Origin: Eledone cirrhosa
Lineage: Eukaryota
NCBI GenBank assembly: GCA_964016885.1
Contig: OZ024746.1
Span: 80,786,001 to 80,850,000 of the forward strand
Direction: 5' to 3'
Length of the DNA: 64,000 bases
Shown here: positions 26,133-26,770 of the stretch, in pieces
How the letters are laid out: every line of letters begins with the position of its first letter
Position numbering within the stretch: the stretch's first letter is position 1
Translations under genes and position numbers: made by a program
Notes under the pieces: model-generated
Databases searched by the model: none
Seen by the model: only the letters and a program-made list of their open reading frames with translations
Told to the model about the DNA's origin: nothing

Positions 26133-26770
26133 CTGGGCATTATAATAAATCTTCGGTAAACCGATACGTGCATATATATATATGTGTGCATGTATGTATA
26201 TATATACATACTACTGTACGTCTGTATACATATATGTATGTACGTATACATACATACATACTTACATTTAAGTAAGTGCCGTACTAAGAGTGAGAAATAA
26301 AATTTTGTTTCATTCTATTCCATTTATCGTTTTCGGTGTGCCCGGCCGACCGAACTCACTCGATATGCAAAATTAGGTTGCTCAGCCGTTAATATGCATA
26401 AGGAAAGTATATACTTTCAGACGTTTAACCATCTGGCAGGAAGGTATACGATGCTGAAGATAGCTAATAAGCTTGAAACTAGTATATCATTCCTGTGTCA
26501 GTGTTGAACAAAAAGGTGACGTGGTTGCCTAAACACTGTACAGCGTAATTCGGGCTGTTTGTTTGTTTACAAACAAATAAACTGGGCATTATAATAAATG
26601 TTCGGTAAACCGATACGTGCATATATATATGTGTGCATGTATGTATATATATACATACTACTGTACGTCTGTATACATATATGTATGTACGTATACATAC
26701 ATACTTACATTTAAGTAAGTGCCATACTAAGAGTGAGAAACGAAATTTCATTTCATTCTATTCCATTTAT
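26133..26770 (+). mobile_element. Hammerhead-bearing non-coding element, family A (~450-bp unit with ~195-bp terminal direct repeat)
   Basis: 26133-26327 is repeated at 26582-26770. Hammerhead at 26450-26488. A further copy lies at 34824-35095. TA-rich flanks. Confidence 0.8.
26450..26488 (+). ncRNA. Minimal type I hammerhead ribozyme (family A)
   Basis: GATG-CTGAAGA-T AGCT aata AGCT T-GAAA-CTAG-TA-TATC. Extended pairing is possible between CTGGCAGGA and TCCTGTGTCAG. Confidence 0.75.

What the first reader, a model, noticed from the sequence alone, without database searches (positions are those of the whole stretch)
26133..26770. Family A: 1.4-mer terminal redundancy around a single hammerhead, the expected footprint of reverse transcription of a circular or multimeric RNA
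Seen: the last ~195 bp (26582-26770) are repeated at the start (26133-26327), giving a ~449-nt monomer with no ORF. One hammerhead lies in the unique part. The 3' end (…TTCATTCTATTCC) is the same in the copy ending at 35095, and it is not the cleavage site. Inference: RT primed at a fixed site and ran more than once around a ~450-nt circle or through a concatemer, as proposed for retrozymes. A partial-tandem pLTR of a PLE is the alternative.
Basis: partly seen in the sequence, partly recalled or inferred. Interest (0 to 1): 0.75.

Follow-up and report, generated by a model that had tools for sequence, protein, structure and literature searches.

The report
Penelope-inserted hammerhead retrozyme copy
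This is one decayed copy of a very abundant 442-base non-coding repeat with a predicted self-cutting RNA motif; its insertion ends match those of Penelope-type jumping genes, and its doubled end was likely made by copying one RNA unit more than once, probably a circle, which is a known kind of element whose copying route is still untested.

Summary
About 195 bp are repeated 443-449 bp apart (93.5% identical) around one type I hammerhead. The copy belongs to a family of more than 13,000 units with no ORF.

One correction: there are two 3' ends about 60 nt apart (55 and 41 of 111 arms), both running into (TA)n. Back-to-back arms paired one end of each kind in 25 of 25 intact cases, as in an autonomous PLE insertion of this genome.

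Reverse transcription does not pause or scar at the ribozyme cut (3 stops in 96 passes, 4.8 expected). Both repeats of this copy share an allele found in 1.3% of units. That favours one unit read more than once. A circle is likely (~55%), but an uncleaved multimer is not excluded, and no RNA run was available.

Each unit carries an snRNA-promoter-like block. This copy has a damaged stem I, a damaged promoter box and only one ribozyme, so it is probably dead. The partner PLE was not identified. This scan reported the same layout before on other DNA of this genome.

The parts
26128..26327 (+). 5' partial unit (unit positions ~250-442); 5'-truncated end of the insertion, abutting (TA)n
   Evidence: 93.5% to 26577-26770
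26328..26770 (+). One full unit, younger subfamily S2 (17 substitutions from consensus over the whole copy)
26364..26413 (+). snRNA-promoter-like block: octamer-like box 26364-26376 (1-nt insertion in this copy), TCAG 26382-26385, TATA box 26407-26413; predicted start near 26438
   Evidence: function inferred, not tested
26438..26494 (+). Type I hammerhead: 6-bp stem I plus extension, 4-bp stem II, palindromic 2-bp stem III; predicted cut 26484/26485; two stem I changes in this copy
   Evidence: cleavage not tested
26707..26770 (+). Optional ~60-nt tail between 3' end site B (~26707-26713) and site A (~26764-26770), followed by (TA)n
34363..34821 (-). Inverted arm of the second insertion (34770-34821 and 34363-34439), ending at site B, split by a hairpin element at about 34440-34770
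34811..35097 (+). Direct arm of the second insertion (unit positions 167-440), ending at site A

Best explanation
This is a one-armed, decayed insertion of a high-copy, protein-free 442-nt hammerhead repeat (a non-LTR retrozyme, i.e. a non-autonomous Penelope-like element) that was likely pasted into a (TA)n tract by a PLE protein, which likely primed inside the RNA and read one RNA unit about 1.4 times, probably round a circle. Shown: family size, two fixed 3' ends, the A+B rule for inverted arms, (TA)n flanks, read-through of the cut site, and shared rare alleles. Inferred cycle: a tandem copy with two ribozymes is transcribed from the snRNA-like promoter in the upstream unit; dimeric hammerhead cleavage releases a cut-to-cut monomer, which is ligated; a PLE RT/GIY-YIG protein nicks (TA)n and primes at site A on one strand and site B on the other; each arm stops at random. 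Odds: PLE-mobilised retrozyme ~0.9; single-unit template read repeatedly ~0.7; covalent circle ~0.55.
For: 13,728 exact hits of a 38-mer and 15,065 of a 25-mer. Ends: A 55, B 41, other 15 of 111 arms; TA-rich flank after 46 of 55 A ends and 34 of 40 B ends. Of 35 back-to-back pairs, 25 are A+B, 0 A+A, 0 B+B, 10 have a broken end; same subfamily in 34 of 35. An RT+GIY-YIG PLE insertion (L112) is a 3.27-kb palindrome with the tail on one arm only; two long ORFs of related families hit RVT_1 and GIY-YIG. This matches the published PLE tail and two internal RT starts. 80 of 111 arms cross the cut; 3 stops in 96 passes versus 4.8 expected; 1 indel in 2,760 aligned positions at the cut, no higher than elsewhere. 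Both window repeats carry G257 (198 of 15,263 exact pattern hits). Among loci picked for G257, 9 of 23 multi-unit insertions have it in every unit, in both subfamily groups, and 13 of 35 other units carry it. Stem I pair 123-159 stays paired as UG/AU/GU/CG/UA in 78 of 81 units; the core is intact in 67 of 78.
Against: No RNA evidence exists here. In the one biochemically studied PLE, ribozyme cleavage was not needed and unprocessed RNA was the main template. 14 of 23 G257 insertions are mixed; most fit later mutation, but L285 (2 of 3 units) fits a heterogeneous multimer as well as a reversion. No A>G editing excess: 157 vs 127 T>C, p=0.10; shared alleles 9 vs 6. The hammerhead has U.U where G10.1-C11.1 is usual, and only one of nine Xenopus retrozyme dimers cleaved in vitro. 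No PLE family sharing sequence with the unit was found among 50 GIY-YIG loci, of 10,595 candidates. T4-T7 runs would stop Pol III before a full circuit.
Confidence: 0.7

Rival explanations
1. Same element and same PLE enzyme, but the template is an uncleaved linear multimer from tandem source copies; the ribozyme only trims or is dispensable.
For: Anole Poseidon uses unprocessed RNA in vitro. Tandem copies are common: 9 of 111 arms cross the cut twice or more. A 60-kb array exists. Smooth read-through of the cut is predicted equally well.
Against: Linear copying alone cannot spread a new allele to all units, yet subfamily alleles and G257 are shared across units and arms. The 60-kb array is not the source: four alleles at 97-100% in its 130 scored units occur in only 1-2 of 166-288 dispersed segments. 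Other arrays were not tested.
Confidence: 0.28
2. The template is a cleaved linear monomer, and RT jumps from its 5' end to the 3' end of the same or another monomer.
For: It also passes every base through a one-unit bottleneck.
Against: No pile-up of 5' ends at the cut (3 vs 4.8 expected) and no indel excess there. Stem I partner alleles on either side of the cut stay matched.
Confidence: 0.12
3. It is the 3' pLTR remnant of a 5'-truncated autonomous PLE.
For: Partial tandem, tail, inverted arms and hammerhead are all pLTR traits. Autonomous families here have a similar U-stem-U hammerhead.
Against: Upstream of the unit lies the unit's own tail. Only 22 genome hits have the tail followed by something other than the unit start or TA, all different and none leading into a PLE ORF in the same orientation. 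No arm in the tested loci continues into a PLE ORF. An ancient origin from a pLTR remains likely.
Confidence: 0.05
4. Locus-specific duplication or assembly artefact.
For: The flanks are microsatellites.
Against: The repeats differ by 6.5%, and the same layout with variable 5' length recurs at dozens of loci.
Confidence: 0.01

Closest known systems
Metazoan non-LTR retrozymes (Cervera & de la Pena 2020, PMC7229834: passages and Discussion read; Li, Clavereau & Pollet, bioRxiv 10.64898/2026.07.22.740005: parts 1-3 of 5 read)
   Same: Non-coding tandem unit, low GC (38%), one type I hammerhead per unit, monomers to large arrays, co-occurs with PLEs; predicted highly paired circle (z about -7.5 vs 40 shuffles).
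   Different: Unit 442 nt versus ~170-400 nt in the 2020 paper (within the 51-972 range of the preprint). circRNA and cleavage are untested here. The parts read do not analyse insertion ends, inverted arms or an internal promoter.
EN+ Penelope-like elements: pLTR, tail and inverted copy (Craig et al. 2021, PMC8557442: passages; Frangieh et al. 2024, PMC11167929: parts 1-2 of 4; Cervera & de la Pena 2014, PMC4209133: passages)
   Same: Partial tandems, 5' truncation, inverted 5' arm, tail at one end only, two internal RT starts, AT-rich target, palindromic helix III. Circles as templates for more-than-unit RT were already proposed in 2014.
   Different: No ORF; tail ~60 nt versus 30-40 nt; no sequence link found to a partner family.
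Newt satellite 2 and schistosome Sm-alpha repeats (seen only as cited in PMC2220036 and PMC6765202 passages; Coats 1994 not held)
   Same: Hammerhead repeat with a promoter inside the unit, snRNA-type in newt; single copies cannot propagate.
   Different: Here the boxes resemble both host U6 (octamer-like, TATA) and U1 (TCAG) upstream regions; polymerase undetermined.

Membership tests
Non-LTR retrozyme | Short non-coding tandem unit | tested here: met
   442 nt, longest ATG ORF 38/75 aa; dimers to a ~136-unit array
Non-LTR retrozyme | Type I hammerhead in each unit | tested here: met
   Core intact in 67 of 78 units, stem I covariation; U.U at 10.1/11.1 is atypical; no Rfam hit
Non-LTR retrozyme | At least two consecutive ribozymes (Li et al. 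'active' criterion) | tested here: not met
   Not met by this copy (one ribozyme); met by 9 of 111 family arms
Non-LTR retrozyme | Self-cleavage and circular RNA in vivo | not testable with these tools
   No RNA holder listed
PLE-mobilised element | Partial tandem with variable 5' truncation | tested here: met
   41 of 111 arms exceed one monomer; 5' ends spread over the unit
PLE-mobilised element | Optional tail, present at one end of inverted insertions | tested here: met
   25 of 25 intact pairs are A+B; same in L112
PLE-mobilised element | AT-rich/microsatellite target | tested here: met
   80 of 95 scored A/B ends have TA-rich flanks versus 3 of 15 other ends
PLE-mobilised element | Sequence shared with a partner PLE's pLTR | tested here: inconclusive
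   None among 50 GIY-YIG loci, a small part of 10,595 candidates
Autonomous PLE | RT + GIY-YIG ORF | tested here: not met
snRNA-promoter repeat (newt satellite 2-like) | Host-like proximal promoter boxes at the right spacing | tested here: inconclusive
   With TATA set at -31: TCAG at -56 (U1 genes -56/-57), octamer-like box at -73 (U6 genes -77 to -79); transcription untested

The most novel reading that the evidence does not exclude
A self-promoting 442-nt RNA circle is copied by a dimeric Penelope RT that primes both strands of a (TA)n break at two fixed, different sites on the circle and rolls past the ligated ribozyme junction, so that each insertion records rolling-circle reverse transcription directly in the genome.
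Probability: 0.45. Interest if true: 0.7.

Novelty: new member of a known kind. Interest (0 to 1): 0.42.

Why it matters
Circular templates for retrozyme and PLE insertion have been proposed since 2014-2020, and the one in vitro PLE study found cleavage unnecessary. A family with more than 13,000 units, mapped priming sites, a strict A+B arm rule and long-ORF PLEs in the same genome offers a defined substrate to test circle against multimer. The locus itself is an ordinary, probably dead copy, and the class is known.

Tried and rejected
Rfam scan: no hammerhead hit at gathering score. The repeat finder was swamped by microsatellites. Partner search: no shared sequence in 50 GIY-YIG loci. A 19-nt match in L061/L068 lies inside an RT ORF and was treated as chance. 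Adjacency to PLE fragments at L039, L155 and L177 was read as separate insertions. An apparent pile-up of 5' ends at unit position 1 vanished on realignment to concatemers. A mild cluster of 5' ends at positions 100-128, near the predicted start site, was seen afterwards and not tested. RNA-editing scars: not found (the script failed at its last lines, after these counts were printed). The 60-kb array as source: rejected. Whole-region alignment of U1/U6 upstream DNA to the unit was not significant for the likely functional genes; only the short boxes and their spacing match. The 0 of 20,000 shuffle count uses a pattern chosen after seeing the match. Literature searches found no paper on cephalopod retrozymes, a strict A+B rule or retrozyme U6-like promoters; subscription journals are mostly not covered and no supplements were read.

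Full report
Observation. Positions 26128-26327 repeat 26577-26770 at 93.5%, so the insertion is about 1.44 units long and sits in (TA)n. A type I hammerhead core lies at 26454-26484. The window is C6:80,786,001-80,850,000 of a 3.0-Gb genome.

Family. The unique part gave 3,155 first-look candidates, of which 40 were scored. Exact patterns give 13,728 and 15,065 hits. Clustering 132 near-full units gave subfamilies S2 (442 nt, 4.9% mean pairwise, includes this copy), S4 (~429 nt, 8.1%) and S3 (~417 nt). A 60-kb array of about 136 units lies on C2, with a truncated 5' start and a normal 3' end into (TA)n.

Ends. I sampled by position: the first 100 exact 38-mer hits on C1 gave 82 loci, 5 removed as overlaps, and 2 with no scorable arm. 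Of 120 arms, 9 were dropped as locus-edge, split or duplicated pieces. Of the remaining 111, 55 end at site A, 41 at site B about 60 nt upstream, and 15 elsewhere. A and B ends run into TA-rich DNA in 80 of 95 scored cases; other ends in 3 of 15. There are 35 back-to-back inverted pairs: 25 A+B, none A+A or B+B, and 10 with one broken end. The second copy in the window is such a pair, split by a hairpin element. Craig et al. describe partial tandems, inverted 5' copies and a tail at one end only as PLE traits (passages). Frangieh et al. map the tail to two internal RT starts and show cleavage and extension of both target strands. In this genome an RT+GIY-YIG insertion (L112) is a 3.27-kb palindrome with the tail on one arm only. 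PLE mobilisation is therefore strongly inferred, though no enzyme was tested.

No autonomous form. No arm continued into a PLE ORF in the loci tested. Only 22 genome hits show the tail followed by neither the unit start nor TA; they are heterogeneous. No partner was found among 50 GIY-YIG loci out of 10,595 candidates.

Ribozyme. The consensus has a 6-bp stem I, 4-bp stem II and palindromic 2-bp stem III, the metazoan layout thought to work as a dimer (passages). The core is intact in 67 of 78 units, and one stem I pair switches among UG, AU, GU, CG and UA while staying paired in 78 of 81. On 17 distinct rows chosen partly for an exact core, 98.2% of cells pair (relatedness inflates this). U.U replaces the usual G10.1-C11.1. 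This copy has two stem I changes; constrained energy is -1.9 versus -9.5 kcal/mol for consensus.

Template. 80 of 111 arms cross the predicted cut and 9 cross it twice or more. Stops within 8 nt of it number 3 in 96 passes against 4.8 expected, and indels there are not raised. This argues against a cleaved linear template. Differences within insertions are mostly private: 1,052 private, 58 shared by all units, 59 partly shared, in 104 insertions. Both repeats of this copy share the haplotype with G257, seen in 0 of 206 other sampled units as the full two-change form and in 1.3% of exact hits as G257. Of 36 loci picked for G257 (39 fetched, 3 overlaps removed), 23 have two or more units covering the site. 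Nine, including this copy, carry it in every unit, across subfamilies; 14 are mixed, mostly single units. A recurrent allele fixed across units and arms implies that one unit was copied repeatedly at some generation. A ligated circle explains that and the clean junction together. Against: homogeneous tandem sources could give the same pattern, L285 is mixed 2 of 3, there is no editing signal, and the anole enzyme preferred unprocessed RNA. The known 60-kb array is not the source.

Promoter. Host U6 genes have an octamer-like box at -77 to -79 and TATA at -31 (3 of 4 shown); U1 genes have TCAG at -56/-57 (6 of 6 shown). With TATA set at -31, the unit has TCAG at -56, the box at -73 and +1 at the base of stem I (window 26438). 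Positions 30-91 are unchanged among the three subfamily consensuses, which otherwise differ from S2 at 28-29 sites each. The spacing is 4-6 nt short of U6, T-runs conflict with Pol III, and this copy has an insertion in the box (no match). Newt satellite 2 is the precedent (citation only). A promoter was already hinted in titles returned before I ran this test.

Verdict. A new member of a known class: non-LTR retrozyme, proposed to be a non-autonomous PLE. The quantified A+B rule and promoter block were not found in six paper searches, but the one-end tail is in print, and this scan has reported both features for sister families and probably for the older subfamily of this one (unchecked notes; a sequence look-up returned nothing). 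Supplements were not read and could hold this family.

Noticed in passing
window 52169-52240 (-): HDV-like (Rfam CPEB3 model, 37.8 bits, cut-off 35) ribozyme candidate followed by a T run; context not resolved.
   Followed up: partly
window 54044-54080 (+): Second hammerhead core of a different repeat family that runs into (TA)n; related motifs seen in L109 and L112.
   Followed up: no
window 39652-41322 (+): 557-aa stop-free frame, weakly similar to PLE RT-EN proteins (E 2e-7), no Pfam hit, with YRDD and a C-terminal YVG motif; probably another PLE clade, with relatives at many loci.
   Followed up: partly
window 34440-34770: Hairpin element inserted in the TA tract of the inverted arm; related copies at 56106-56504 and in several loci, sometimes as inverted pairs.
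   Followed up: partly
G000:C2:382,983,656-383,043,846 (L201-L094): 60-kb array of about 136 units with array-specific alleles fixed in nearly all units, yet 5% pairwise divergence.
   Followed up: partly
L097, L099: PLE ORFs of 930 and 1,025 aa with RT and GIY-YIG; their 3' ends carry non-canonical hammerhead-like motifs starting TTGA and end in (TA)n.
   Followed up: partly
L227-L249 upstream regions: Host U1 and U6 genes share a distal TTACCTCCCTTG-like motif about 255-290 nt upstream; not seen by eye in the repeat consensus.
   Followed up: no
L197 and L198: The same two-armed insertion appears twice, about 0.93 Mb apart and inverted, suggesting a segmental duplication.
   Followed up: no
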